From NCBI GenBank assembly GCA_051599415.1, contig AP039707.1:62001-126000 (forward strand): 64,000 nucleotides of DNA, read 5' to 3'. Positions 38,953 through 55,734 of the stretch are shown here, piece after piece. A program made the position numbers and the translations under genes. Below the pieces are notes generated by a model. The model was given only the letters and a program-made list of their open reading frames with translations, made no database searches and was not told the DNA's origin. The number at the start of each line of letters is the position of its first letter. Position 1 is the first letter of the stretch. The DNA is from Savitreella phatthalungensis. Lineage: Eukaryota.

Positions 38953-40905
38953 TTATCCCTTGTTGTCGTCGATGCATTTCTTGACGTCGTCTGCAGTCTG
39001 CTTGTCTGGGAAGCGGATTAGGGATTGTCTTATTTTGCGACCTTCGTCGAACCAGAAGATTCGGAGCGTTGTTTGATTTTGGACAATGTCGTAGTTGAAT
39101 TGGTGGTGAAGGTGGGTGTTGAGTCTGAGTTGGCCTAGGCCGCCCTGCTGGCGAGCGAGTACACGGACTTTGTCGGTCGCGCTGTTGCGCGATACCTTGA
39201 CCGCCACAGGACCAATCACCTGGTATGCCTTCGTGTCAGGGTCCAGGTGATACAACTTACCAGTCGAGGTGATCAGCGCAGTCTCGTCCTCCTCACCGGC
39301 ACCCGTTGCTGTGCCCAGGTCAGCACCTACCTCCGAGCCGTCCTCATCATCATCATCCTCGTCGCCTTCACCGTTGTCGTCGCCGTCCTTCTTGTCACCC
39401 GATGCAGCACCATCATCAGCCTTCTTCGGCGCAGCGAAGTTGAATGTTGGCGTCGTGGATGAAAATGCAGGAGCTGGTGCACTGCTTCCAAAGGAGAATG
39501 CGGGCTTGGGTGCGTCGCTGGACTTTGCTGCAGTCGCTGACCCGAAACCGAATGATGGTGTGGTCGTCGATGACGTTTGACCAAAGCTGAACGTCGCTGG
39601 CCCGGTCTTTGCACCAGTCGCCGCAGGTGGGGCCGCTTGGCCGAAGGAGAAACCAGTCGATGCTGCAGAGCCGCCAGAAGATTTGCCGAAAGAGAAGCCG
39701 CCGGTCGTAGAAGGTGGAGCAGAGGTGGTGGTCGCGGCGGAACCAGAATCCTTCTCGCCGCTAGCAGGCGCACCTGCTGGACTTGCAAGAGGATTCTGGA
39801 AGGAGAAGCCACTGCCAGATGCGAATTTGATTGGCTTATCCGGCGTCCAGGTGTGGTCTTTCTTCTCGTCTGGCTTCGGCGTGGCTGTAGCTGCCTCTAT
39901 TTTCTCGTCCTTCTTTTCTGATGATTCGGTCGGCTTTGTCTCCGCGGGCTTGCCGAAAGCCGGTACCTGTGCTCCTCCGAAGGAGAACTTTGGAGTCTCT
40001 GTTGCTGGTGCTACTGGCTTGGTAGCCGCAGCCCCAAAGCTGAAGGATGGCGCTTGTGCGTTGAAGGAGAATGAGGGCGCTTTGGGCTCTGCCGGCTTGT
40101 CTGCTGGCTTGTCATCAAGCTTGGGATACAGACTTGTTGTAGCTGTCGTGGATGGAGCGAAGGACGATGTCGAAGTCGACGTCGCACCGTCGACCGAGGT
40201 TTTTGGAGCTTCCATTGTCGATGATGGCTTTTTGTCAGGCCGCTCGCTCTTCTTACTCTCGTACTGCCCGCAGAGTTTTGTCAGATCAGCAAATGGATCA
40301 TTGTCAAGACTCCGTTGCACAGCCTTGAGGAAGGCTGTATTGACGGAGCGCGTGTGTAGCAGGTCCTGATATTCCGCATCATCGACATCGTTTCCTGTCT
40401 CGGTGTTGGAAGTCTGCGTCCCGGTATTCGCCGGCGCAGGCGTGGGTGCTGGCGCTTGTCCAAACAGCGACGAAGTCGATGGGGTGGTGGCAGCCTGTGC
40501 TGGCGCACCAAAGCTGAAACCAGATGTCAGCGCTGGCTGTGTCGAGGCCGGCGCGCCGAAAGAGAATGGCTTCAAGGCTTGACCCGAGGAAGACTGTGTA
40601 GAAGATGTGCCGAATGATACGTTGGCAAAGGGATTCGGCTTACTCGCGGGAGCGTCTCCACCCGAAGATGAAGTCGCGCCAGTCATACCAAAACTGAATG
40701 GGTTGGCTGCTGGCGCTGGTGCAGTCGAGCCTGATTCACCCTGTTCACCGGCTCTCCGCCGTGACTTGGGCATTGCGAGTTTCCGTGTGGCCATGACTTC
40801 TGCACTGGCCTGAACTGCAGGTTCTGGCGGTCCATCCCTGTCATACTCCGGATCATCCTCCAGATTCTCTCTGGTGATTTGCAAACCTGCCTGTCGCTTC
40901 GACAT
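38953..40905 (-). CDS. NUP2: Nup2/Nup50-like nucleoporin
   Basis: N-terminal KRQAGLQITREN...ASAEVMATRKLAMPK, many FSFG repeats, C-terminal Ran-binding domain (GEEDE...GKLY...RVLAR...LRLN). Confidence 0.88.
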   Translation of the reverse strand: MSKRQAGLQITRENLEDDPEYDRDGPPEPAVQASAEVMATRKLAMPKSRRRAGEQGESGSTAPAPAANPFSFGMTGATSSSGGDAPASKPNPFANVSFGTSSTQSSSGQALKPFSFGAPASTQPALTSGFSFGAPAQAATTPSTSSLFGQAPAPTPAPANTGTQTSNTETGNDVDDAEYQDLLHTRSVNTAFLKAVQRSLDNDPFADLTKLCGQYESKKSERPDKKPSSTMEAPKTSVDGATSTSTSSFAPSTTATTSLYPKLDDKPADKPAEPKAPSFSFNAQAPSFSFGAAATKPVAPATETPKFSFGGAQVPAFGKPAETKPTESSEKKDEKIEAATATPKPDEKKDHTWTPDKPIKFASGSGFSFQNPLASPAGAPASGEKDSGSAATTTSAPPSTTGGFSFGKSSGGSAASTGFSFGQAAPPAATGAKTGPATFSFGQTSSTTTPSFGFGSATAAKSSDAPKPAFSFGSSAPAPAFSSTTPTFNFAAPKKADDGAASGDKKDGDDNGEGDEDDDDEDGSEVGADLGTATGAGEEDETALITSTGKLYHLDPDTKAYQVIGPVAVKVSRNSATDKVRVLARQQGGLGQLRLNTHLHHQFNYDIVQNQTTLRIFWFDEGRKIRQSLIRFPDKQTADDVKKCIDDNKG

Positions 40906-41915
40906 GGCTATGACAGGAGGATAAAATTAAGGATAAGGAGACAGACGATGAGAGACTTTTCGGTTTCAGAAGTGAGGTATCGCTGATTGAGGTGAGGACC
41001 GAGGTAGTGTAGCAGATGATTGTAAGGAGGATGGTGCTGTGATAGGGTTGACTTGGAGGTTACGCCATGGGTTGTGTGAGCTTGTGCGGTACGAGTGAGT
41101 CCTGCACGGGAATCAAGCCGAGCACGGGATTGAAGATGTGGTCCACTATTCGGAGCCCTGGTCAGTCACTGTACGGTGTGTACTGCACAGGTAGGTCGAT
41201 GTCAATTAGGGTGATCTGACGCCACAGATTTTGTATCATGTGGCGCTATACAGAATCCCAAGTTCGAATGATTTGCACGGGTTTTTTACCTGTTACCAGG
41301 CCTGATAGACAGACTACCAGCGCTTAGACAACTGTTGACGCCCCAGAGCACACTGATCACGCACGGCCATGCATTCGACCTCTAGACTGGATCTGGAGCC
41401 AGAGTAGAGTTGCCGGTAAGCCGTACAGGTCGCTGAAGTAGAGGTCAGCCAGCGGACGCGCGGCCGTAAATCACTGAAGAGATATGCAGGTAAATAGACA
41501 GTCAGACAGAGAAGTGCTGCCGGTAATGAAGTGATATTTCTGCCGAGACGCTTCCAGATGACGAGTTACCGGAGGAAGGACAAGCAGCAAAGTGACTCAC
41601 AGCAGCGACTCAGAGAGCGCGAATCATGCTGCTTGAGGAGACTTTGTCCACGGCAATTGACGTGGGTCTGCGTTCTAGCTTGGAAGATATAGTCAAGTCA
41701 AGTGATGTCGGTGGAGAAGATGATTTCTATGGAGGCGGATGATTGATCACATCTGAACATGAGGGCAGACTTGGGATTGTGTATCTGGGCCCTTGAACTA
41801 GACCGACAAGTGCGTTAGGGATGACGATGACGACATCGGTGTGTTTCATCCGTCTCTATGTGTGTCTATGAGACTTCACATAGGGATGTATATGTGCATA
41901 TGAGTGTGCATGTGC

Positions 41916-41979
41916 GCATGAGCATGAGCATGAGCATGAGCATGAGCATGAGCATGGGCATGTGCATGGGCATGTGCAT
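41916..41979. repeat. (GCATGD)n hexamer microsatellite
   Basis: Six perfect GCATGA units followed by GCATGG/GCATGT variants. Confidence 0.9.
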
Positions 41980-42015
41980 TTACATACACACATATGTACA
42001 TATGTTAATGGTGAT

Positions 42016-43735
42016 CCCTATGCTCCCTGAACCTCCGAATTAATTCGGTGAAAATTCGGTGAATATTTAGTGGTCTAAATTCGGTGAAAATACGGGGGTT
42101 TTGGCGACCGCGGTTTTTCGGAGGTACCGAATTTCCGCCGAATTTCAGATTTGGAGGTAGTATCATTTGTAAAAACTGAATTTGACGACTTGAGTGATTT
42201 TAGCAATTTATTTGTATCTAAACGCGCTAGAAAGATAATCTGTGAAAAGTCGGAGGTTGCACGTGATCGGCCAGAATCGTAGCAGGTAGACGAGATTGTT
42301 TCAGATTGACGAGGATGTACCAGATAGAGTGCTCTTCAGGTCGTGTCTGCTGTGACACGGCAAATAGATGCCAATGACAGCTGTGCAGCGCCGGAGAAAT
42401 CCTGTACCGGGTATGTCAGCATGTTTCAGGATGGACAGGAGCGAGTCCCTACCGCTTGACATGTTTGAAGTAGAAAGTGAGTTTCACATAGATAGTCTGT
42501 CGTCTTGGCCTGTGAGACTGTCAGTACTGTGCAATGGCAATAGGCTATTTTGGATAGACGCACCCTGTAATGGTAGTTGAAACCACGAGTCTGTGATAAG
42601 GTCAGTCAGTCGGAATGAATGTGATTCAGGTAAACAGACCTTTGTTTCAGATTGACGGGTCCAGTGACAATTCTGCAACGGTGTCAATGATCTGGTAGAA
42701 GGGTGTTTCAGATAGACGTACCTTTGTATTGTTTCTGGAAGTAACGAGTCTGTCATTGTGTCAGTATAGTGCAGATAAGGGCATGTTTCAGGTAGACAGA
42801 CCTTCGCATTGACCTTTGCCATGAGATTGTCAAAGAGTCAGTGTCCAGTAGAGTCACAGGAATGTGCGTACCTGACTTGTCTTGTCTCAGATAGACGAGC
42901 GTCAGACAGATGAAGTGTTCCAGATAGATGAAGCGTGCCTGTGACAGCATCAGTAGAGTAGGATGATGAGAGGTTGTGGACCACTCGTACCTTGAGTGTA
43001 TGATTTAGATGATCGCAAACACACTGTGTTGAGTCAGCAGGCAGCTAGACAACCGTCTTGTCCTTACAGTGAAGTAGTTGTTTCAGGTTGATTAGACACG
43101 CGAGTCTGACAGATGATATGTAACAGATTGACGGCACATGTGTCGATTCCTCAGTGAGGTGCTCCATACATGCAGCTGGACAGACACTCTTGTTGCGCGT
43201 GGAAGTAGCATGGTCACCACTGTCATAAGGTTGTGAGTGAGTGACTAGTGTCGGACTGTCTACCTGAAACACGTCGATTGTCTCACTTATATAAGCTACA
43301 GAGGAACACTGAAAGAAACACTAATCTACTGTAGGCTGTAGGCGCCAGAAAAGCCTCCACATTATCGATTTAGCAATTACGCACTGCTCTACCTCTTGCC
43401 TCATTGAAGCAGCAAAGTTGAATTTGTCTAAGTCCGTTAGAAACTCCGGGGTAAGTCTGAGGTTGATTGCAAGGTCTGAGATTGATTGCTGCGTTTCAGA
43501 CATCACGTGATTCTAAGTACACAAAATCGGTCAGAATTCGGAGGTGACACTAAAAATCGGTGATTTCTCGGAGGTAAATTCGATCTGAAAGTCAGATTCG
43601 GTGATTTTCCGGAGGCCGCCAAATCTGCTGCGAGAAATCGGTGATTTATCTGTGACTTTTCGGAGGTCAACTTTCGCCCTTCATAGTAAATCGGCGATTT
43701 TTCTGCGATTATTCGGAGATCGGGGATTCATAGGG
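42016..43735. mobile_element. Putative non-autonomous TIR DNA element (1.72 kb) with subterminal and internal repeats
   Basis: Left end CCCTATGCTCCCTGAACCTCCGAATTAAT versus reverse complement of right end CCCTATGAATCCCCGATCTCCGAATAAT; AT on both flanks (possible 2-bp TSD); TCGGWG repeats at both ends; no transposase ORF. Confidence 0.6.
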
Positions 43736-44027
43736 ATGATCTCCATTCGAGCAGTAGATATATATAACTTTACAGCGTACACTCATACGTGGGTTTCATG
43801 TATGGACGTGGCTGGGTTCAGCATGCATTGGCAGGTGGAAGCAAGATCAAGTGGTGAAATAATTCGAAAGGATGATCACGTTCAACCTTGGATAGATTAG
43901 AGTACGTTCTCTAGATCCATCCAAGCTACGTGCTGTTGTGTGCATCCGCTGTTTCGAATTGATGAGAAGGGATAAAGCATGTGCGAGAATTGTGTGTACG
44001 GGATTGATCCAAAGGGATGCACGATTC

Positions 44028-44080
44028 GGTCATGAATTGTATGAGATAGAGTAGGTGGGTCATGAATTGTATGAGATAGA
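44028..44080. repeat. 23-bp direct repeat, 30-bp period
   Basis: GGTCATGAATTGTATGAGATAGA at 44028 and 44058. Confidence 0.9.
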
Positions 44081-45609
44081 ATCGATGGGTCAGTCAATCA
44101 TACCTGACGGAGATGAATTCAATGGATGAGAAAATCCTCCAATCTGAGCGTGGATGGAAATTGTATTCAATAGATGATCCAAGAATAGATCTTCTGTACG
44201 TGGGTGTACGCGTGGTTGATTTTCTCTCTGAATGCACTTTCAATCTGAGACAGCGAGTGCAGATCATTTGACACTACTACTGCTACCACTACTACTGTTA
44301 CTGCTACTACTACTACTAAAATCTCCAGATCCATAAAATTTATACATTTTCATAATCGAGTGAAATCGTATCAGGATACTTTCTCAATGTGGAGACCGTG
44401 ACCGTGGAAATGAAAATGGGAAGGAGATATGACATTCATATCTGACTGCGGTCAGATCAAGCTTCCACTCAGTGAGCATGGGGTCAAAGAATTATTATTG
44501 TTGTGAATATAGATTAAATTCTCTATAGATCCGGATTGAAAATCAGCTGAAAATCACTACAAGTACTATATACACAATTAATCATAGAATCTACACCCAT
44601 GTTCACATATATTCACACACATATACTGCATGGATATACACGATCCTCAGCTGTCCAATACACACACACGTTCATCCCTCTTCCAGATATTCTCTTCTTC
44701 CTCTCTCTCTCTTCTCTCTCTCTTTCTCAGCCATCCACATCCACATCCACACATCTCCCTACCAGGATACACACTCATACACACACACACACACACACAC
44801 TTCCCCAATACACACACACACCCACACACACACATCCCTCCACCTTCAGCAAACATCATCATCTTCATCACCCTCCTCTCTCCACTCTCCTCTCCCTCCA
44901 AGTGTCAAACTCAAGCTCACGCTTACGCACAAAACGAATCCAGGTCGACTTACATACAGTTACGACCGTCCAGAAAGCGTAATCGTTGACCTATACAGGA
45001 ACCTTTGACATTAGCACCAAGGTCATCCGCCAGGGGTCACAGACACTGTCAGAAGCAGACACACAGTCTAGGTACGTGTAGGCGCAGATACAGGTACAGA
45101 GGCAGAGAAAACAAGCGCAAAAAGCAGTTGCAGTGACCTTGTCAAAAAGTCATTCTTCAGCATTGGCATCTACGCTTGTTTACGGAGATCATTATTTCCA
45201 AATCACTGGATTGATTATTCACGCTCAAGAGGCAGCAGCAGCAGCAGCAGCAGAGAAAGAGCTTCCAGATTCCATTTGCGTCTTCTCACTCAGTCTTCTT
45301 ATCTACACGAAAGTAGACTCCAACGACAAATTGACGCAATCTCTTCCAGTCTCATCCTGATCTCCCTCTGAGCCAGTGGACCCAAAGGATCTTTCAATTG
45401 ACTGCCCTCATCGCATCTGGCTATATCACTCCTCCCTTCAATCCAGCTCCACCGTCTAAGCTTTGCTTTCTGCGCGTCATTCACTTGTCGCGTAGCAAGC
45501 CTCTGTACGCTAGTCTTCCTTTCAGCGTTCCTTTTCTCTTCTACCAACACACATCTTCCTTTCAATCCTCTATCCTGGCTTCCTTCGCATAGAGACCAGG
45601 AGCTAGCGC

Positions 45610-48600
45610 ATGACGAAGCGCAAGACTCCTGAATCACCAACCGTCCATGGCGGCAATACCACTGCCGGGACAAAGCTCAACCACGGCACTTCTGGCGGCT
45701 CCCAATGCAAGACACCGACACACGCAAAGCTGCGCTCTCCATCTAAGTCCACCCACAATGGAAGAGCAAACTCCTCGTCCTCCTCACACTCCGAGGATGA
45801 ACCCATGAGCGACGTCACCCCAGATGCAGATCAAGACACGAATCCGAATGCAGATGCTCTCAGCGCGACTTCATCTTCAGAGCAAGAATCGAGGTGTCCA
45901 AGGTGTCCTTCTGAATCGTCCACTGCATCAACCGATCCAATAGCTGCAAAGTCAGCTTCTAAGGCTGCCGAGTCAGACGACACCGCAGTCGCCTGGCTAG
46001 GATGTGACAGATGCAAGACATGGTTCCACGCAGGCTGCGTCGATCTGAGACCCCAATCAGTCGTGCGGTATATCTGCAAGACGTGTGAGGTTGCCAATCC
46101 GCACGACCGTACTGTCACCCGCGAGGAACGACCGAAGCGCGCGAAGTTGGGCGGCATCGACTACAACGCGCTCAACGGTGGAGAACATGTCAACAACCTT
46201 CGTCACCTCTACACGACCGCCATCGAAACGAGACCTTTTGCAGCGCGACAAGTGGTCGAATTTGACGACGGCACTCCCCTGACAAAGGCTTACATTGATC
46301 AGAACGGCTTTGACAAGCCAATCGTCATCCACAATCAAGACGGCCTCGACATGGTCATCCCATCCGATCTCACCGTCGACCAAGTGGCAGACAGTGTGGG
46401 CAGGGAGGAGCCAATCGAGGTGTTGGATGTGCCAACTCAGGAAGGATGCAAGGGTTGGACACTCGGCAAGTGGGCAGACTTCTACAACGAGTCGACCCCA
46501 ACGCGTGTTCGAAATGTCATCTCTCTGGAAATCTCTCACTCTGATATCGGCAAGCAGATGAGCCGACCAAAGCTCGTGCACCAGCTCGATATTGTTGACT
46601 CGTTCTGGCCGAAGAAGCGATTCGCTATCAGGGACTATCCCAAGGTCCAACTCTACTGCCTCATGTCCCTTACAAACTCCTACACAGACTTCCACGTCGA
46701 CTTTGCCGGCACATCGGTATTCTACCACATTGTTCGCGGGCGCAAGACCTTCCTCTTCATACCTCCCACACCGGCGAACCTCAACAAATATCGAGAATGG
46801 TGTTCCTCTTCGAACCAGTCCACTACCTTCCTCGCAGACGCGTGCAAGGAGACATTCAAGATCGACCTCGGCCCTGGGGACACGATGATGATTCCCTCTG
46901 GGTGGATTCATGCAGTCCATACGCCAGAGAAGTCCCTCGTCATTGGTGGCAATTTTCTCTCTCTCGTCGGCATGACGAAACATCTCGGCGTGGTCGAGAT
47001 CGAAGACCGCACGAAGGTGCCTACCAAATTCAGGTTTCCAAGCTTCGGCAAGCTGATGTGGTATGTGGCTGTGGGCAGCCTGACGCGACGCCCCTCCCTG
47101 AGCACGGAAGAGCGACGTGGACTTTTCGCCCTTTGCCGCTACGTTCTGAGACTGGCATTGTTTGCGGAGAACAAGGAGGACCTTCTTGGAGATCGAACAC
47201 CGACAAAGGCCGAGGTCGAGGACGCTAAAGAAAGCATTCCGCGCGACATCATCCGTGGCTCACCGATCCTGCTCGCTAAGATGGCCGTCGCTTACGCGTA
47301 CACGCAACTCGCGGATGATTCGGATCGTCAGGCAGTCGGAGATCTCGATGACCTCGCCATCGACGCGAGCGACCGGAAGGCAGAGGTCCTTGTTCATTAC
47401 GATATTGAGGAGAGCAAATGGGAGGCGCTCGACCAGGCAGATCGATCAGACTCATCATCCTCAGATGGACCTGTCGAGCTTGATGGCGTGGCATGGCACG
47501 AGCAGTGGCACAGACTTCGCCTTTCGCCCAAAAGTGGCAGTCACGATATCCTCCGTTCCTTTCTGCGGATCCCGATCGAAGATCAGCGCAGGCTCGAGCG
47601 GAAGCGCGCGCAGGCGGCCGTCAAAGACAGGACGGAGCAGAAGATGATCACGACGCCTCCAGTGAGTCAAGCACAGCTGCCGCCTCCCCAATCACCATCG
47701 GAGCAGCCCTCTCAGCAACAGCCACAGTCACAGCCACAGCAGCTCAAGCAGGAGCAGAAGGAGGAGCAGCATCAAGAAGCTGTCAATCATCAGCTTCCTG
47801 TCAGCTCGCCAACCTCAGTCGAGACCGGTTCGAATGATCAGGACAACTCTGATGACTCAACCGTCACGTCTGGCTCCGACTCAAACACGCCCGATGACGA
47901 AGACATGGACATGATGGAAGACCCTCTGCCCCCACCGACAGTGATAAAGACCGATCCAAATGCACCGAGCCGAGCGCTCGACGACATTTACGCCCACAAC
48001 ACGTACTTGCCGCCACTCGACCTCGCAGTCGCCTACTCGGACCCGTTCAGCATGTTCCCGCCTGCGCCTGCATCGCAGGCCTCTCACGCACCTGCTGTGT
48101 GGGAGTCCCAGATGGGCTGCATGCGTTGCAAGGCGATGCGGAAGAAGTGCGACAAGGCTCAGCCGTGCTCTTCCTGTATCGAGGACGGGTGCACGAGCGA
48201 GTGCCAGTCGTTCATGCCAGCTGCTGGGGCGAAGCAACAGGCGGAAGCGTTGTGGGCGGCGCAAGCAGCTGCTCAACACGTGGCCGCGCGTGCGATCGCA
48301 ACTGCTACTGCCGGTGCAGCTGGCGCGATGACGACCTCGACCTTGACGTTTGACCCGACTGCACAGCTCGGGCATCCGCTCCAGGCAGCTGTCGGCGCTG
48401 GCATTCCCGGTCTGCCGCTGCCGGTGACATCGGCGGCCGTGGCTGCTGCCGCCGCCCTCAACGGGACGATCAACGGAACGATCAACCCTGCAGCTCCTGC
48501 GCAAGCAGGCAACCTGGCGAGTGCTCAAGGAAAGCCGCGAAAACAGAAGCAGTACGGTCGTCGGTGTCTCCGTTGCACGAAGGACAAGAAGCCCTGTAAC

Positions 48601-49419
48601 CTGGAGAAGCCGTGCGACCGATGCACGAAGAAGGGTCTGAAGGCGGACGAGTGCATCTATCAGTGGGAACTGGACGGCACAGCGCCGCCGCCGCCGCTGA
48701 CGAAGGAGGAGAAGGAGAGGAAGCTCCAGCAGGACAGAGATCGCGAACGTGAGAAGGACGGAAAGAAAGAAGCGGCACGACTTGCTGCGGCTGCAGCCGC
48801 AGCAGCTGCCAAGAACGGTGGCACGCCTGCATCTGCCCCTGCATCTGCCCCTGCGGCTGCGACTGCTGCAGCCAACGGTATCGCCGTTCCAAGTGGGCCT
48901 GTGACACCTGGCGTGCCATCTGCCGTGCCATCCCTCGTTCCCTCGACATCAGGAGCTAGCACTGGCACCCCTTCACCAGCTCCATCGGGCGCAGTCACTC
49001 CAACAACGACGACAACAACAACAGCAGCAACGACGACGACCCTACCCCAACAGACCGCAGGCAAGCCTGTCCTGGTCAAAAGCGAAAGTTCTCTGAGCAG
49101 CGTCAGTTCAATCCCGATCGACTCACTTTCTACGAGCGACCCATCGGACGGAGCTAAACTTTTACCACCTCTGCCGCCACCATCGCAATCAGCGACAAAC
49201 TCATCGGAAAAATCGAGCAACCCTAAGGCCAAAACCAGTACTACTACCACTACCACTGCCACTACTGCCGCGACACTTCGAAGCTCGCCACAGAAAGCGT
49301 CTGCCTCCACCTCTGCAGTTTCAGTCTTTAGCCCAACATCGGCCTCGAACAAGACAAACAGCGCTAGCAGTACAGAGAGGAGTGCAACGGCCACACCAAA
49401 GCTCGTGTCGCTCAAGTGA
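45610..49419 (+). CDS. JHD1: PHD-JmjC histone demethylase (JHD1/KDM2-like) with two C-terminal Zn2Cys6-like clusters
   Basis: PHD CPRC...WLGCDRCKTWFHAGC...YICKTC; JmjC NVISLE, YPKVQLYCLMS, TDFHVDF, IPSGWIHAV (HxD...H intact); Cys6 clusters at 48118-48204 and 48565-48660. Confidence 0.92.
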   Translation: MTKRKTPESPTVHGGNTTAGTKLNHGTSGGSQCKTPTHAKLRSPSKSTHNGRANSSSSSHSEDEPMSDVTPDADQDTNPNADALSATSSSEQESRCPRCPSESSTASTDPIAAKSASKAAESDDTAVAWLGCDRCKTWFHAGCVDLRPQSVVRYICKTCEVANPHDRTVTREERPKRAKLGGIDYNALNGGEHVNNLRHLYTTAIETRPFAARQVVEFDDGTPLTKAYIDQNGFDKPIVIHNQDGLDMVIPSDLTVDQVADSVGREEPIEVLDVPTQEGCKGWTLGKWADFYNESTPTRVRNVISLEISHSDIGKQMSRPKLVHQLDIVDSFWPKKRFAIRDYPKVQLYCLMSLTNSYTDFHVDFAGTSVFYHIVRGRKTFLFIPPTPANLNKYREWCSSSNQSTTFLADACKETFKIDLGPGDTMMIPSGWIHAVHTPEKSLVIGGNFLSLVGMTKHLGVVEIEDRTKVPTKFRFPSFGKLMWYVAVGSLTRRPSLSTEERRGLFALCRYVLRLALFAENKEDLLGDRTPTKAEVEDAKESIPRDIIRGSPILLAKMAVAYAYTQLADDSDRQAVGDLDDLAIDASDRKAEVLVHYDIEESKWEALDQADRSDSSSSDGPVELDGVAWHEQWHRLRLSPKSGSHDILRSFLRIPIEDQRRLERKRAQAAVKDRTEQKMITTPPVSQAQLPPPQSPSEQPSQQQPQSQPQQLKQEQKEEQHQEAVNHQLPVSSPTSVETGSNDQDNSDDSTVTSGSDSNTPDDEDMDMMEDPLPPPTVIKTDPNAPSRALDDIYAHNTYLPPLDLAVAYSDPFSMFPPAPASQASHAPAVWESQMGCMRCKAMRKKCDKAQPCSSCIEDGCTSECQSFMPAAGAKQQAEALWAAQAAAQHVAARAIATATAGAAGAMTTSTLTFDPTAQLGHPLQAAVGAGIPGLPLPVTSAAVAAAAALNGTINGTINPAAPAQAGNLASAQGKPRKQKQYGRRCLRCTKDKKPCNLEKPCDRCTKKGLKADECIYQWELDGTAPPPPLTKEEKERKLQQDRDREREKDGKKEAARLAAAAAAAAAKNGGTPASAPASAPAAATAAANGIAVPSGPVTPGVPSAVPSLVPSTSGASTGTPSPAPSGAVTPTTTTTTTAATTTTLPQQTAGKPVLVKSESSLSSVSSIPIDSLSTSDPSDGAKLLPPLPPPSQSATNSSEKSSNPKAKTSTTTTTTATTAATLRSSPQKASASTSAVSVFSPTSASNKTNSASSTERSATATPKLVSLK

Positions 49420-50720
49420 GGGGTGACTGGGCGATCGATCGATTGGTTGGACGTGATTAGTCTGGTAGCATCGATAGCACTTTGACGCGTGCGTACTCAC
49501 GTACGTAAGCACGTCTGTCACTTTAATCTTTATGAATGACCTCTCACTCATACGTAGTCTACCTAGCCTTTTCTATGCCTCTGTGTCTGCAATGAGGATG
49601 TATCCTGCACGTGGTAGGCTGTTGAGAATATGCATGTGATTATGACATCGTCTGTAGAGACACGTGATCTTTGCAACACACACCCACACCCACACACGTG
49701 ATTTCTGTACTGTTCTTCTGTCGGCTCCTCGGACTCGGCCAATTTTCTTCTAATAGAAATTCTTATCAGAATCAGATAAATAATCTAGAAAATCAACAAA
49801 ATACTAATGATCGACCCAGCCCAGATCACCACTCAAATTTCAAGTCTGTTTGTGTGACCTAGCACGAATCAATGCCAAACTAATTCCTCGGGGGGTCAGA
49901 ACAGGCTCCACCGTCGGCTTCTATCTGAGAGCTCAGAACTGCGAGTACACAGTACAGACTACAGTAGCTCGGCATACGGTCAAAACCCAGAAGGTCTCTT
50001 CATTCTCACTTTCGCCCTCTCCTGTGTAGCCTAACCCGAAGGCCCGGAAGTCTTGGTAGTCGCGGTGGGGAGCCGCCATCGCCCCGAGTTCAAGTGGAGA
50101 AATAGACTCGAGCTCATCCTCAAACCCGTATCAGATCCAAGAGAGGAATAGGTCAAAGGAAGATCTATAGCGTATAGCGTATCCCAGCCGCCAGCCGTCA
50201 GCACCAGTACCATAACCAAAGTCAGAGCCAGTGAACCAGATTCAGACAGCTGTTCTAGAGTACGTAGTCCAGATCCTTGGGAGGGTTCAAACTGCTGAAC
50301 TTCCCTGGGGAGCTTCAGTAGTCAAGTTGTCCAAATCACATTCATTTGATCCTCCATCGGCATACCCTAATCAAACTCCGGTCAAGCAGCTGTAAGCGTC
50401 ACCGTCACACTCACCCGCCTCCCCCGCAGAAACACTCACCTCTCTCTCTCTCACTCACTCTCTCTCTACTACACCTACCGACATACCCTCACGACCGATC
50501 GCCTCTCTCTCACTCACACTCGCACCCACACACGCTCACGCTCACGCTCACACCTACACTCACAACTCTCTCCGGGCCGACGGATCTGCGTCCTCGACAA
50601 CCGACGCACGACACCTGGTCCCAGACTACAAAACCAACCAGAACCCCTCCAACTCAAACATCTGTCACAGACTTACATCTACCCAAAAACCCTTTCTACC
50701 CCAATTACACATATACAACC

Positions 50721-51080
50721 ATGCCTTCCGCAAAGGAGCTCTTCGGACAGATCAACGACGGCCTCAAGGACGAGGGCATCAAGAAGCAGGCTCTGAAGAA
50801 GGGTAACGCGATCTTCTCGTTTGACTTCAAGGGTGCTGGCAAGTACTACATCGACCTGAAGCAGACCGGTGTTGCTGGTGAGGGTGCTGCGCCACAGGGC
50901 AAGAAGGCCGACATCACGCTGACGATGGACGAGAAGACGTTCCTCGACCTGGCAGAGGGCAAGGGTAACGCCCAGAAGCTCTTCATGCAGGGAAAGATCA
51001 AGATCAAGGGAAACATGATGCGCGCTACAGCCCTCGGTGACATCCTCAAGATGGCACAGACCGAGAAGGCAAAGCTCTAA
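50721..51080 (+). CDS. SCP2 sterol/fatty-acid carrier protein, peroxisomal
   Basis: 119 aa from ATG 50721; ADITLTM...AQKLFMQGKIKIKGNMM SCP2 signature; C-terminal PTS1 AKL. Confidence 0.92.
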   Translation: MPSAKELFGQINDGLKDEGIKKQALKKGNAIFSFDFKGAGKYYIDLKQTGVAGEGAAPQGKKADITLTMDEKTFLDLAEGKGNAQKLFMQGKIKIKGNMMRATALGDILKMAQTEKAKL

Positions 51081-51314
51081 ACACACCTATCGCTCCCCCT
51101 TCACCCTCCCATCCCCCCCACAAATCTTCTCCAAATCAGATCCCGTGTGTAGGTAAGTTAGGCCTATGCAATTCTGATGTCTATCCTATCTCATCGGCGT
51201 GGACAAGTATACTCACTCTACTTGACCTGACTTGACCTTGGACTCGATTATCGTTCTGATTTACGTGATGTATGCGTGTACGTGTATGTGTGTGTGGTAG
51301 TAGACGTAGATGCT

Positions 51315-52175
51315 TTACCGACGACGTGACGAGGTACCTGGTTGACCTGCGCCGTTGAGTTTGGCTGCGAAGAGGGCGGCGGAAGTGTTTGCTGCATGGA
51401 CTGCTGTGCGCTTGGGTGGTAGGTACTTGCCGACAGATGGCATGATCCCAACTGCCTGTGCTCTGCGGATTGCCTTTGCGAGCTTCCTCTGTGTCTTGTG
51501 CCTCAATCCTGTGTCTGCACGCTGCTTTATCCTCCCGAGGTCAGTGACAAACTCGTTGAGCAGCGTCGCGCACTTGTACTCCCCCAACGGCGAGATCCCA
51601 CACTCGTGAAATCCATCGTGCATCATCCCAAGCCGGATCTTTCCAGCCACAGGTCGCCGAGCATCAAACGACAAATCCTCACCACCATACACAGTACCAG
51701 CACGGTCCAGCCGAGTCTCATACCGAGAAAGCTCACCAGGACGAAGCCCGAGCTCGCTCATCATCGCAGCCGTCTCACTCAGCGGTCCATTCACCTGGAA
51801 ATCCTCAGCAACCCGACCTCCAGAACCACCAGCACCACCAGATCGACCCCAACCGCCGTTGTTGTTCGAACCACCGTTGTTGTTGTTGTAGTTGTTGTTT
51901 GAGAATCGGCGACCACCGCGACCACCTCCACCGCTGAGGAATCGAGTTTGCATCTCACTCCAGTCCTTGAGGATGTCAGCGAGCGGCGTAGCAGCAGGTG
52001 GTGAGCTCGATGCGTTACTCCCTGCACTTGCATCTGTGGATGTCTGTGTCGACGTGGTGGTGGTGGTGGTGGTGGTGGTGGTGGCCGGTGCTCCTGCTGA
52101 CGCAGGCGCCGAACCAATCTTGCCACCACTGTTACGCAAGCATCTAACCGTCGAGAACAATCTCCTCGAAAGCAT
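51315..52175 (-). CDS. RSM18: Mitochondrial ribosomal protein bS18m
   Basis: Presequence MLSRRLFSTVRCLR from ATG 52175; S18 core SPLGEYK...LLNEFVTDLGRI...TGL...QRKLAKAIRRA. Confidence 0.88.
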   Translation of the reverse strand: MLSRRLFSTVRCLRNSGGKIGSAPASAGAPATTTTTTTTTTSTQTSTDASAGSNASSSPPAATPLADILKDWSEMQTRFLSGGGGRGGRRFSNNNYNNNNGGSNNNGGWGRSGGAGGSGGRVAEDFQVNGPLSETAAMMSELGLRPGELSRYETRLDRAGTVYGGEDLSFDARRPVAGKIRLGMMHDGFHECGISPLGEYKCATLLNEFVTDLGRIKQRADTGLRHKTQRKLAKAIRRAQAVGIMPSVGKYLPPKRTAVHAANTSAALFAAKLNGAGQPGTSSRRR

Positions 52176-52365
52176 CCTCAAGCAAATATACTGTCTGGAG
52201 TCTTCGTGGGATGTTCGTTGTCTTGACGTCCTTCGATCCTCAGTAACTTTTGTGCAAGGTCTCACAAAGTTTCCAGCAAGTCACGTGTACTTTCACGTGA
52301 TGCTCCGAGGACGCGATGTACAGTCACGTGATTCCAAATTGTAATTCATACGCGCAGCATTGAAG

Positions 52366-52371
52366 ACGCGT
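52366..52371. promoter_or_regulatory. MCB element upstream of RPA1
   Basis: AAGACGCGTCTT palindrome, with further ACGCG half-sites nearby. Confidence 0.6.
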
Positions 52372-52536
52372 CTTTCATCAACCCTCGCACACACACTCAC
52401 AGAACGACGTTCATCTATACCGTCACCCATCTACACCTCTCTCCTCCCTTCTCCCTGGTCTCTAAAGGCTACCAAAAAGCCCTTGTTTTCAAAGTGAACC
52501 TTCCTCTCTGTTGTTCCTCCTAAGCGCTCCCTCCAG

Positions 52537-54360
52537 ATGGCTTCAAAGCTGAAGCCAGAATCCCTCAGAGCCGTCGTAGACGCTCCAGAAGGCGCTCAAC
52601 CAACATCTACAATCCTACAGGTTCTACAGATCAAGCAACTCACCTCTGCATCAAACAATCAGGATCGCTATCGACTCGTCCTTAGCGATGGCGTCAACTT
52701 CATCCAGGCCATGGTCGCTACACAGCTCAACGATCTCATCAAGAAAGATCAGCTGGTCAAGGGAGTCTTCATCAATCTCACATCCTACTCAATCACGATG
52801 ATGAAGGAGCGCAAGATCCTCATCGTCCTTCACTGCACTATCGAGCCAGACGCACCTGCAGAAAAGGTCGGCATCCCCGTAGCATTTGAGGAGAACAGAC
52901 CAGCAGACGGAACTGGTGCTGGTGCCGTCAAGTCGGAATCCTCACATGCGGGTAACGGTGCTCCAGGCAGACCTGCACAGGCCAGATCTGCCGTCTCAGG
53001 CGGCGCAGGCACATCCTCAAATGGTCCTCCCGGTGGCGGCACTGTTTACCCGATCGAGGGCCTTTCACCCTACCAGAACAAGTGGACGATCAAGGCGCGC
53101 GTCGTCCAGAAGAGCGATATCCGACAGTGGCACAATCAGAAGGGTGAGGGAAAGTTGTTCAGCTGCACGTTCTTGGACGAGTCTGGCGAGATCCGAGCTA
53201 CAGGATTCAACGACCAGGTCGACGCACTGTACGACGTGCTCCAGGAAGGCCAGGTGTACTACGTGTCCAAGTGCCGCGTCAACATTGCAAAGAAGCAGTT
53301 CTCCAACGTCAACAACGAATACGAGCTCATGTTCGAGCGAGACACGGAGATCTCAAAGGCGGACGACGCAGGCGCCGTCCCAGACATCAAGTACCAGTTT
53401 GTCGAGCTAGCAGACCTCGAAAAAGTAGACAAGGACGCAGTCGTCGACGTCATCGGCGTCATCAAGGACACAGGCGAAGTCGGTCAAATCACCTCCAAAA
53501 CCACGAACAAGCCGTTCGACAAGCGAGAGCTCACAATCGTCGACAAGACGGGGTACTCTGTCAGGCTGACGTTGTGGGGTAAGCAGGCGACAGCATTCAA
53601 GGGTGACCTGGACTCTGTCGTCGCGTTCAAGAGTGCCAGAGTATCCGATTTCGGTGGTCGCTCACTCAGTCTCTCGAGCGGTGGCACGTACCAGCTCGAC
53701 CCGGACATGCCACAGGCGTTCGCCCTCCGCGGGTGGTACAATCAGGAGGGTGGTAGCTCGATTGCCGCCTTCCAGACGCACGCCAATATGGGTGCAGCCT
53801 CTGTGGGTGCGGCGGCAGGCGGACGCGTGCAGGAACGTCGGACGTTTGGTGACGTGATCGCCTCGAATCTCGGCTCGTCCGACAAGGCCGACTTCTTCAC
53901 GGCGAGGGCGACAATTGCGTACATCAAGCAGGACAACTTCTGCTACCCTGCCTGCCCCTCACAGGGCTGCAACAAGAAGGTCACAGAGGCAGACCAGGGC
54001 GACTGGCGGTGTGAGAAGTGTGACAAGTCCTACCCAGCACCAGAATACCGCTACATCATGACCGTCTCAGCACTAGACCACACTGACCAAGTCTGGCTAC
54101 AGCTCTTCGACGACCAAGGCAAAGTCATCATGGGCCAATCCGCAGGAGACCTCGTCAAGCTCAAAGACGAAGACGAAGCAGCCTTCACCGAAGCCTTTGC
54201 AGCAGCAACCTCAAGACCCTACATCTTCAGAGTCAAGGCTAAGCAGGAAACCTACAACGGCACTACCAGAGTCAGATACTCAGTCACCTCTGCAGACACC
54301 CTCAACTTCAAATCAGAACTTGAGGTCCTCCAAGCACAGATCGAGTCCTATAACCAGTAG
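52537..54360 (+). CDS. RFA1: Replication protein A large subunit
   Basis: RYRLVLSDG, PIEGLSPYQNKWTIKARV, DESGEIRATGF, DFGGRSLS, zinc ribbon YPACP...CNKKV...CEKC. Confidence 0.97.
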   Translation: MASKLKPESLRAVVDAPEGAQPTSTILQVLQIKQLTSASNNQDRYRLVLSDGVNFIQAMVATQLNDLIKKDQLVKGVFINLTSYSITMMKERKILIVLHCTIEPDAPAEKVGIPVAFEENRPADGTGAGAVKSESSHAGNGAPGRPAQARSAVSGGAGTSSNGPPGGGTVYPIEGLSPYQNKWTIKARVVQKSDIRQWHNQKGEGKLFSCTFLDESGEIRATGFNDQVDALYDVLQEGQVYYVSKCRVNIAKKQFSNVNNEYELMFERDTEISKADDAGAVPDIKYQFVELADLEKVDKDAVVDVIGVIKDTGEVGQITSKTTNKPFDKRELTIVDKTGYSVRLTLWGKQATAFKGDLDSVVAFKSARVSDFGGRSLSLSSGGTYQLDPDMPQAFALRGWYNQEGGSSIAAFQTHANMGAASVGAAAGGRVQERRTFGDVIASNLGSSDKADFFTARATIAYIKQDNFCYPACPSQGCNKKVTEADQGDWRCEKCDKSYPAPEYRYIMTVSALDHTDQVWLQLFDDQGKVIMGQSAGDLVKLKDEDEAAFTEAFAAATSRPYIFRVKAKQETYNGTTRVRYSVTSADTLNFKSELEVLQAQIESYNQ

Positions 54361-54515
54361 TAGTAGCAGCAGCACCAGAAGCAGCAGCAGCAGCGGAAGC
54401 AGTATGTCTTATGCTCATCATATTCTTATCCTATCCTATCCACAGCCAGCGACCCCGATGGAGATTCAACTAACCGTGTCAGCTTGTCCTTGCGCAACAA
54501 ATCCAAAGTAGAAGA

Positions 54516-55391
54516 TCACTCGGTTCTGGACGCTGCTGGCGACGTTGTGGCTGTCGATGTCCGATTTACTGAAGCTAGACCGCCAACCTTGCCATTAAGC
54601 CCGAGTCCTTCTACTGCGCGAGTGACGAGGTCCAAGTGCTGAGGGTAAGTCTTGCGAGCGAGATGACCATCGAAGCCTGCAAAGACTCTGTGTCCGTCAT
54701 CGCCAGGCGTCGCAGACAAGTATCCAGCGATATCCCCTTCCTTCACCTTTGACTCTCTCAGCGCATCTTCCAATCCGATACTCCGAACGCCCTTCCCCTC
54801 GTCACCTTCCACATCACCCTTCCGAGGTTTAGGCATCCGCAAGACCTCATTCACCCAGCGAAGCAATCCAGCGTGCTCCTTCACTCCAGTCTCAGGCCCG
54901 ATCGCACCAGCTCCACTGCGAAGCAACCGCGCCTGGATAGTTGATACCTCGGGCGTCTGCTCTAGGTCTTCCAAAACGACCCGTCGTCGTTGTAAGGAGG
55001 TCTCTGTCTGAGTGGATGCGGTCTTCGGACCGGAGGTCTGTGGGGCATTGCCGAGCGGTCTTGCAAAGACGCGTGTGAGATCTTGTAGAATCTCTCCCTT
55101 TGTGTGCCTGACGAAACCTTCGCCGAGCTGTTTCCGTCGCAGGTGCTCCTCCCCACCATCGTTCCCATTCCCATCCTCGAGCGCGATCGGTGGGAAGGGC
55201 GTCGACAAGCATCGCACAGCATCCTCACGCCTCACAAAGTGCACTCGGCCACGGCCCACCTGGCCGCGCAAGTACCGTCGAGACGGACGAAACTCAGAGA
55301 CACCTCCAAAACTCTCAAAGTGTCGAAGCAGTCGTAGCGTATCCCCCAATGTCACATCCTCCCAAAGCACTCGCCACTTCAACGTCGCCAT
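54516..55391 (-). CDS. Hypothetical protein with possible degenerate RRM-like N-terminus; start uncertain (first ATG 55391, frame open to at least 55463)
   Basis: Long ORF filling the gap between RPA1 and DPB2; LRHFESFGGVSEF...GRGRVHFVRREDA resembles RRM secondary-structure spacing. Confidence 0.55.
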   Translation of the reverse strand: MATLKWRVLWEDVTLGDTLRLLRHFESFGGVSEFRPSRRYLRGQVGRGRVHFVRREDAVRCLSTPFPPIALEDGNGNDGGEEHLRRKQLGEGFVRHTKGEILQDLTRVFARPLGNAPQTSGPKTASTQTETSLQRRRVVLEDLEQTPEVSTIQARLLRSGAGAIGPETGVKEHAGLLRWVNEVLRMPKPRKGDVEGDEGKGVRSIGLEDALRESKVKEGDIAGYLSATPGDDGHRVFAGFDGHLARKTYPQHLDLVTRAVEGLGLNGKVGGLASVNRTSTATTSPAASRTE

Positions 55392-55626
55392 CACAGCAAC
55401 CCACTTGACTGATTCACCAACAGAATAGCTCACTGACTCCTTGAGTGACCGAGCTGTAGACAATAAACCAAGGACGACGCTGATAACGTCGGAAGGAAAG
55501 CGTAGAGAGTAGACTAGCCTGTTTGTGCGAGCAGGTTTTTTTTCTTTCTTCGTTCACCTGTCACAGAAAGATCAGATCAAATTCTCAAAAAGACGTGTAC
55601 GACCTCTCACACCAAAAAAGTCTAAG

Positions 55627-55632
55627 ACGCGT
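55627..55632. promoter_or_regulatory. MCB element upstream of DPB2
   Basis: AAGACGCGTC about 105 bp before the ATG. Confidence 0.55.
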
Positions 55633-55734
55633 CACAAGAAGCCCTCAACAACATCCTCCAACTACATCCCTTCCTCTGTACACTTGGTCCTGCCGTCTCT
55701 TGACCTGTGTCTGAGTCGCATTTTGTGAGGGTCA

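What the first reader, a model, noticed from the sequence alone, without database searches (positions are those of the whole stretch)
45610..49419. JHD1-type PHD-JmjC demethylase fused to two Zn(II)2Cys6-like DNA-binding clusters
Seen: in one uninterrupted ORF, after PHD and a catalytically intact JmjC, come CMRCKAMRKKCDKAQPCSSCIEDGCTSEC and CLRCTKDKKPCNLEKPCDRCTKKGLKADEC, both fitting the Cx2Cx6Cx5Cx2CxnC pattern. Established: S. cerevisiae Jhd1 has only PHD+JmjC, animal KDM2 uses a CxxC DNA-binding domain, and Neurospora JmjC protein DMM-1 works with the Zn2Cys6 protein DMM-2 to limit heterochromatin spreading. Inference: a sequence-specific, self-targeting histone demethylase. Some filamentous-fungal Jhd1 proteins may have Cys-rich tails, so novelty needs checking.
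Basis: partly seen in the sequence, partly recalled or inferred. Interest (0 to 1): 0.7.

Follow-up and report, generated by a model that had tools for sequence, protein, structure and literature searches.

The report
Histone demethylase with GAL4-type zinc clusters
In this yeast and its Taphrina-like relatives, the histone demethylase Jhd1/KDM2 carries its own fungal transcription-factor-type DNA-binding zinc clusters, which may let it find sites on DNA by itself, much as its animal counterpart does with an unrelated domain.

Summary
One intact 1269-aa frame encodes PHD, a JmjC core with every KDM2A catalytic residue checked, and two Zn2Cys6 clusters, each above the Pfam cut-off. The fusion is neither unique to this genome nor common in fungi. 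Of 356 listed relatives, 10 have a full cluster; the 9 placed in the tree lie in one Taphrina/Protomyces clade (100/100). Protomyces keeps one cluster. Pneumocystis, Saitoella, Neolecta, Lipomycetales and non-ascomycetes have none. Most filamentous-ascomycete-type relatives carry three-Cys half-motifs at similar positions, with no provable common origin. Non-Cys cluster positions stay 54-57% identical against 16-20% in flanks. The nearest solved structure is Pho7, which binds DNA as a monomer. Best reading: an H3K36me1/2 demethylase tethered to DNA by tandem clusters, a convergent stand-in for the CxxC of KDM2. DNA binding, specificity and substrate are inferred, not shown. DMM-1 belongs to a different JmjC group. 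Set9 of the same lineage also carries a six-Cys cluster. Self-targeting demethylases are known (Rph1/Gis1, KDM2), so this is a new variant; no description was found in eight literature searches.

The parts
45610..49419 (+). Single ORF, 1269 aa, Jhd1/KDM2-type demethylase with two Zn2Cys6 clusters
   Evidence: only Jhd1-like match among 6 JmjC matches in the own genome
45895..46086 (+). PHD finger (C96-C159) with an insertion of about 20 residues relative to relatives; W129, W138, H140 and all Cys invariant in 9 of 9
46495..47049 (+). JmjC catalytic core (296-480): H362, D364, H434, T359, K379; KDM2A substrate residues S305, Y349, F365, Y372, N448, K473, F474
   Evidence: 74% mean pairwise identity among 9
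46984..47118 (+). Jumonji helical domain, Pfam JHD match (459-503)
47998..48015 (+). Short conserved motif NxY(L/I/M)PP in the disordered linker before cluster 1; function unknown
   Evidence: N, Y, P, P invariant in 9 of 9; low pLDDT in the model of relative P0002
48118..48204 (+). Zn2Cys6 cluster 1 (C837-C865); R844 at the Gal4 K18 position; more drifted here than in relatives
48565..48654 (+). Zn2Cys6 cluster 2 (C986-C1015); D992 matches Pho7 D298, K993 Gal4 K18, K994 Pho7 K300
48661..49416 (+). Low-complexity C-terminal tail with a charged stretch; not conserved
   Evidence: 18-20% identity; alignment

Best explanation
The lineage's single Jhd1/KDM2 gene encodes an Fe(II)/2-oxoglutarate demethylase, most likely for H3K36me1/2. 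The PHD probably reads H3K4me3, as in yeast Jhd1. Two Zn2Cys6 clusters on a flexible tail bind DNA directly, probably at CGG-like triplets. With no conserved dimerisation helix, each acts as a Pho7-like monomer or the pair replaces a homodimer. The enzyme is thus brought to a subset of sites by DNA sequence plus histone mark: the job that ZF-CxxC does for animal KDM2, reached with a different domain. Shown: architecture, intact catalytic residues, conservation, lineage range. Inferred: zinc binding, DNA binding, sequence preference, substrate, targeting.
For: Both clusters pass Pfam. The model of the two-cluster segment (cluster 2 pLDDT 86-89, cluster 1 65-75) has Zn2Cys6 chains as 23 of the 24 Foldseek rows shown, Pho7 first, although none reaches E 0.001. 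Non-Cys positions are 54% and 57% identical across relatives against 16% in the linker between them. The Gal4-K18 position is K or R in 11 of 11 cluster-1 and 9 of 9 cluster-2 sequences. The invariant Asp of cluster 2 matches Pho7 D298, whose main-chain carbonyl contacts the cytosine of CGG (PMC6265462 passages). 15 of 15 KDM2A catalytic and substrate positions checked are identical, including the K323-F324 flap, which the aligned PHF8 lacks. The genome has a Set2 (AWS-SET-SRI).
Against: No binding or activity data. Two Protomyces-type proteins lack cluster 2 and P0121 (475 aa, perhaps a cut gene call) has none. CGG/CCG occurs 35 times per kb in long ORFs and 21 per kb elsewhere in the window, 4 per kb just upstream of this gene, so a bare triplet gives little specificity and does not mark promoters. 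Cluster 1 of this protein has Met where 9 of 11 have Arg. The KDM2A Q181-M191 substrate loop is 8 residues shorter, and the best whole PHD-JmjC match is PHF8, an H3K9/K27-type enzyme. The clusters on Set9 are more degenerate and below the Pfam cut-off, which fits a loose anchor.
Confidence: 0.57

Rival explanations
1. The clusters bind DNA or nucleosome linker DNA with little sequence preference. They raise residence time on chromatin but do not choose sites; the PHD and partner proteins do.
For: CGG triplets are very frequent. The linker between clusters is 57-129 residues and unconserved (starts 86-158 apart; 16% identity). A second enzyme, Set9, carries degenerate clusters in 7 of 20 proteins returned.
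Against: Each cluster keeps its own distinct recognition-helix sequence across the clade; a purely electrostatic anchor would not need an invariant Asp there.
Confidence: 0.22
2. It works like fission-yeast Epe1 or Neurospora DMM-1: it limits heterochromatin spreading, and the clusters place it at boundary sequences.
For: Epe1 is described as the JHDM1/KDM2 homologue in the same subphylum (PMC2442719, PMC6077249 passages). The genome has a Pre-SET/SET protein, a chromo plus chromo-shadow protein and a methylase-SNF2 (DNMT5-type) protein.
Against: The PHD and the KDM2A H3K36 residues are kept. A separate KDM3/DMM-1-like gene exists (assigned by eye). Epe1 itself was not among the named hits and was not compared here.
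Confidence: 0.11
3. The clusters are zinc-folded protein-interaction modules or carriers of a nuclear localisation signal, with no DNA role.
For: Filamentous relatives keep only a three-Cys-plus-His half-motif, which cannot form a binuclear cluster, yet conserve it strongly.
Against: The positions that contact bases in Gal4 and Pho7 are the conserved ones.
Confidence: 0.08
4. Artefact: two adjacent genes, or a misassembly read as one frame.
For: No RNA evidence for one transcript could be obtained.
Against: Stop-free frame; contigs span it without difference; the same fusion stands in 9 other proteins that hold both the HxD motif and a cluster.
Confidence: 0.02

Closest known systems
S. cerevisiae Jhd1p (KDM2, H3K36me1/2 demethylase)
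   Same: N-terminal PHD plus JmjC; T, H and Y cofactor-site residues present (PMC8329514 passages).
   Different: Jhd1p is 492 aa with no DNA-binding domain described; this protein adds two Zn2Cys6 clusters.
Mammalian KDM2A/B
   Same: Same catalytic family (E 7e-70 to KDM2A); a zinc DNA-binding domain lies C-terminal to JmjC; its site contains CpG, as CGG does.
   Different: KDM2 uses ZF-CxxC on non-methylated CpG and has F-box and LRR. None of these is found here.
S. cerevisiae Rph1p / Gis1p
   Same: A JmjC demethylase with its own DNA-binding zinc fingers and defined elements, STRE and PDS (PMC8329514 passages).
   Different: KDM4 class with JmjN and C2H2 fingers, not KDM2 with Zn2Cys6.
S. 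pombe Pho7 DNA-binding domain (6E33, 6O19)
   Same: Best sequence match to both clusters (E 0.004 and 0.09) and top Foldseek row; Asp at the same position as in cluster 2; no dimerisation helix.
   Different: Pho7 is a transcription activator with one cluster. The matches are weak and show fold type, not orthology or the same site.
Pezizomycotina Jhd1 (Aspergillus and others)
   Same: Two Cys motifs at like distance: 315-400 residues after HxD and 75-169 apart, against 340-501 and 86-158 here.
   Different: Only Cx2Cx6CxH half-motifs; no Zn_clus hit in 6 of 6 such or related proteins scanned; no closer to these clusters than ordinary clusters are.
Neurospora DMM-1 / DMM-2 complex
   Same: A JmjC protein proposed to be placed on chromatin by Cys-rich domains (PMC9023284 passages).
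   Different: DMM-1 is a separate JmjC group. That DMM-2 is a Zn2Cys6 protein is recalled; the paper was not held.

Membership tests
KDM2/JHDM1 (Jhd1) demethylases | JmjC of the KDM2/KDM7 branch with HxD...H, Thr and Lys cofactor ligands | tested here: met
   nearest named proteins are fungal JHD1
KDM2/JHDM1 (Jhd1) demethylases | H3K36 substrate-channel residues of KDM2A | tested here: inconclusive
   S145, Y199, F215, Y222, N298, K323, F324 kept; Q181-M191 loop 8 residues shorter
KDM2/JHDM1 (Jhd1) demethylases | Demethylates H3K36me1/2 | not testable with these tools
   needs an assay
Fungal Jhd1 | N-terminal PHD finger | tested here: met
   Pfam PHD 25.7 bits, cut-off 24
Animal KDM2A/B | ZF-CxxC, F-box and LRR | tested here: not met
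   no such Pfam match up to E 1
Zn2Cys6 (GAL4-type) domain | Six Cys in Cx2Cx6Cx5-12Cx2Cx6-8C spacing (consensus recalled) and Pfam Zn_clus above cut-off | tested here: met
   27.0 and 24.3 bits; the last spacer of cluster 2 is 9, one more than the recalled consensus
Zn2Cys6 (GAL4-type) domain | Two-helix binuclear fold | tested here: inconclusive
   two short helices per cluster; Foldseek best E 0.09; VIA Z 3.1-3.5 for cluster 2, 1.2 A over 32 residues to 1cld
Zn2Cys6 (GAL4-type) domain | Basic residue at the Gal4 K18 position | tested here: met
   R844 and K993
Classical dimeric Zn2Cys6 transcription factors | Dimerisation helix and fungal TF middle domain after the cluster | tested here: not met
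   no such Pfam domain; sequence after each cluster 16-20% conserved; no coiled-coil predictor was run
Zn2Cys6 (GAL4-type) domain | Binds CGG-type DNA sites | not testable with these tools
   needs a binding assay
DMM-1 (KDM3-like) group | JmjC of the DMM-1 group | tested here: not met
   hits are JHD1/KDM2/PHF8; the two groups are distinct
Epe1 | JmjC without further targeting domains, acting at heterochromatin borders | tested here: not met
   PHD and clusters present against the description; localisation not testable

The most novel reading that the evidence does not exclude
Taphrinomycetes repeatedly grafted GAL4-type clusters onto histone-modifying enzymes (Jhd1 and Set9), so that chromatin marks are placed by DNA sequence. 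On Jhd1 the tandem clusters read unmethylated CGG sites in a genome that keeps a DNMT5-type methylase: a convergent re-invention of the CxxC logic of animal KDM2. The half-motifs of filamentous Jhd1 would be an overlooked DNA-binding zinc finger of the same purpose.
Probability: 0.15. Interest if true: 0.8.

Novelty: new variant of a known kind. Interest (0 to 1): 0.5.

Why it matters
How fungal Jhd1/KDM2 enzymes are targeted is open; the literature read here calls them minimal, without the targeting domains of animal KDM2. A KDM2 orthologue with fungal DNA-binding clusters is a natural test of whether this family has been coupled to CpG-containing DNA more than once. It also points to conserved, unannotated three-Cys-His motifs in Jhd1 of tractable filamentous fungi. 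The reach is limited: the full form is confined to one small class, and self-targeting demethylases are already known.

Tried and rejected
Expression: no RNA holder listed. Contigs of run X2 differ widely in depth and its contig over this gene ends 60 bases after the stop, which looked RNA-like; the run type is only a guess ('DNA?') and comes from one study, so it was not used. Common origin with the filamentous half-motifs: profile scores z -2.5 to +1.1 against 43 ordinary clusters, no support. DNA of the Protomyces-like relative P0122: 0 confirmed loci from 329 candidate stretches, so loss of cluster 2 was not checked at DNA level. The second metagenome scan kept 80 of 118 loci, none close (first rows 42% or less); 0 of 46 with 2 kb or more downstream had a full or half motif, 29 were too short, 5 lacked the anchor motif, and introns could hide motifs. 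ESM Atlas: no usable hit for residues 790-1030. CpG depletion in 5 chromodomain-retroelement loci as a trace of methylation: none, o/e 0.98-1.13. Promoter enrichment of CGG: the reverse in this window. VIA-align rows were mostly the unconserved Ala-rich helix. Earlier scan findings: none in 3 look-ups. No complex prediction was sent, as no protein-protein binding is claimed.
Full report
Observation. The frame 45610-49419 is stop-free and gives 1269 residues. Pfam finds PHD (123-159), JmjC (349-449), the Jumonji helical domain (459-503) and two Zn_clus stretches; alone, the clusters score 27.0 and 24.3 bits against a cut-off of 21. The pattern arose in 0 of 100,000 shuffles of the tail, and a strict intron scan found 0 candidates. 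One contig each of runs X1 and X2 spans the frame without difference, but these are one sample and may be the source of the window. No run is on record as RNA, so one transcript is not shown directly.

Organism and gene identity. A Set9 protein identical to one in this genome is labelled Savitreella phatthalungensis by NCBI, a genus of Taphrinomycetes near Protomyces and Taphrina (abstract of PMC8877625). The genome search gave 6 JmjC matches. By eye the other five are a Jarid1 type, an Rph1 type, two small JmjC proteins and a Cys-rich KDM3/DMM-1-like protein, so this is the only Jhd1/KDM2 gene found. The best solved relatives are PHF8 (E 4e-75) and KDM2A (E 7e-70). All 15 KDM2A positions that I checked are identical: H212/D214/H284 = H362/D364/H434, T209, K229, N142, I144, S145, Y199, L201, F215, Y222, N298 and the K323-F324 flap. 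Passages of PMC4197961 tie S145, N298 and the flap to H3K36 activity; the aligned PHF8 lacks the Lys of the flap. The Q181-M191 loop, also used for H3K36, is 8 residues shorter here. H3K36me1/2 is therefore likely but not certain.

Distribution. Three searches listed only their best rows: 120 of 983, 120 of 532 and 150 of 4829. They gave 119 + 120 + 117 = 356 distinct relatives, scanned by pattern. Eight have two full clusters (Taphrina deformans CCG80979.1, six unnamed proteins and the fragment P0248). Two have one (Protomyces lactucae-debilis ORY84320.1 and P0122, which end at the same motif). 169 have one or two Cx2Cx6CxH half-motifs and 177 have neither. Named proteins without either include three Pneumocystis, Neolecta, Saitoella (a second PHD instead), Lipomycetales, basidiomycetes and Mucoromycota. 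In a tree of 53 selected JmjC cores, the window protein, the Protomyces pair and the Taphrina-like proteins form one clade of 11 (100/100); the window protein joins the Protomyces pair (97/89). The simplest reading is two clusters in the ancestor of this clade and loss of cluster 2 in Protomyces. One member, P0121 (475 aa), has none and may be a cut gene call; I could not see its DNA. P0248 was not in the tree. The backbone of the tree is unresolved and was not used to order events. S. cerevisiae Jhd1 and S. pombe Epe1 were not among the named hits; their architectures come from papers.

The clusters. Across the relatives, non-Cys positions are 54% (cluster 1) and 57% (cluster 2) identical, against 16% in the linker between them and 18-20% in the flanks. 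The Gal4 K18 position is K or R in 11 of 11 and 9 of 9 sequences. Cluster 2 has an invariant Asp where 24 of 30 ordinary clusters of this genome have Arg. This is the position of Pho7 D298, whose main-chain carbonyl contacts the CGG cytosine; Pho7 binds as a monomer with no dimerisation helix (passages of PMC6265462). Pho7 is the best PDB sequence match of both clusters, at weak E-values of 0.004 and 0.09. A model of residues 824-1027 gives two short helices per cluster; 23 of the 24 Foldseek rows shown are Zn2Cys6 proteins, none at E 0.001 or better, and VIA-align gives Z 3.1-3.5. Cluster 1 of the window protein has drifted (38% to the others; Met for Arg). An NxY(L/I/M)PP motif before cluster 1 is kept in 9 of 9 and is unexplained.

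Half-motifs in filamentous ascomycetes. In 31 representatives with two motifs, the first starts 315-400 residues after HxD and the second 75-169 later; in the Taphrina clade the figures are 340-501 and 86-158. The half-motifs look like the first half of a Zn2Cys6 domain followed by an invariant His. Several gene calls read through an intron inside the second motif, so one-motif counts understate two-motif genes. Profile scores give no special likeness to the full clusters (z -2.5 to +1.1 against 43 ordinary clusters). One old origin with several losses and two separate gains both remain open.

A second case. Set9 of this genome carries a Cx2Cx6Cx9Cx2Cx6C motif. Of 20 proteins returned, 7 have a full six-Cys pattern, including Protomyces Set9; T. 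deformans Set9 has a weak Zn_clus hit; the five named Pezizomycotina Set9 proteins and Saitoella have none. Of the 10 scanned, 3 have a Zn_clus hit and none reaches the cut-off. The lineage thus seems to have put such clusters on two histone enzymes, which raises the interest but also fits a loose DNA anchor.

Mechanism. Most likely (0.57): an H3K36me1/2 demethylase whose PHD reads H3K4me3, as yeast Jhd1 does in vitro (PMC8329514 passages), and whose tandem clusters bind CGG-like sites without dimerising. This parallels KDM2A/B, which reach non-methylated CpG islands through ZF-CxxC (PMC6753492 passages). The genome has Set2, a Pre-SET/SET protein, a chromo/chromo-shadow protein and a methylase-SNF2 protein of DNMT5 type, so a methylation-sensitive reading is possible. 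Against a CpG-island-like logic: CGG/CCG is commoner in coding than in other DNA of the window, and five retroelement loci show no CpG depletion. Rivals are a non-specific anchor (0.22), an Epe1-like boundary role (0.11), a protein-binding module (0.08) and artefact (0.02).

Comparison and novelty. It belongs to the fungal Jhd1/KDM2 family by sequence, and its clusters are Zn2Cys6 domains by HMM. It is not an animal-type KDM2, not DMM-1 (a separate group in PMC9676040, passages) and not a classical dimeric transcription factor. That DMM-2 has a Zn2Cys6 domain is recalled; the paper was not held. Demethylases with their own DNA-binding fingers are known: Rph1 and Gis1 and KDM2. Eight searches of the open library (listings and abstract starts only) showed no description of JmjC fused to Zn2Cys6; subscription papers are not covered. 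Passages of two papers describe fungal JHDM1 proteins as PHD plus JmjC or minimal. Passages of PMC2579438, PMC9023284 and PMC7544195 added nothing on this fusion. No supplements were read; the JmjC domain figure S3 of PMC9676040 could bear on the claim. The architecture is visible in automatic annotation of public proteins. Verdict: real, lineage-wide, apparently undescribed; a new variant of a known kind; interest 0.5.

Noticed in passing
L059:2181-4991 (-), G000:C1: Set9-type SET protein with a Zn2Cys6-like six-Cys motif; 7 of 20 returned Set9 proteins have the pattern, none of the 5 named Pezizomycotina ones.
   Followed up: partly
P0025 and other filamentous-ascomycete Jhd1 proteins: Two conserved Cx2Cx6CxH motifs with no Pfam annotation in the proteins scanned; the second is often split by an intron in gene calls.
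   Followed up: partly
window 47998-48015: NxY(L/I/M)PP motif kept in 9 of 9 relatives inside a disordered linker; possible docking motif.
   Followed up: no
P0016, P0025, P0128 C-termini: Lipomyces, Aspergillus and Pneumocystis Jhd1 end in a shared A-x-FG(L/I)R-type motif that the cluster-bearing proteins lack, by eye.
   Followed up: no
L159:1390-7638 (-) and L156:829-2352 (+): A 2082-aa cytosine methylase-SNF2 protein (DNMT5 type) and a second methylase-domain frame of 508 aa in the own genome.
   Followed up: partly
L060:2131-5133 (+), G000:C27: Cys-rich JmjC protein that looks KDM3/DMM-1-like by eye.
   Followed up: no
L070:2869-4212 (-), G000:C6: Low-complexity protein with one C-terminal Zn2Cys6 cluster; the best match to the cluster-2 profile among 43 clusters of the genome (score 19.8, next 8.7), perhaps kin to the donor.
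   Followed up: partly
P0139 (Saitoella complicata): Its Jhd1 has a second PHD at the C-terminus, and Saitoella Set9 (P0370) also has PHD hits: a different appended reader on the same two enzymes.
   Followed up: no
L074, G000:C27:118500-125000: The Pre-SET/SET gene lies next to an STE3 pheromone-receptor gene.
   Followed up: no
window 38953-57768: Neighbours are ordinary genes: Nup50/RanBP1 nucleoporin, SCP2 sterol carrier, ribosomal S18 protein, RPA1, DNA polymerase epsilon B subunit.
   Followed up: yes
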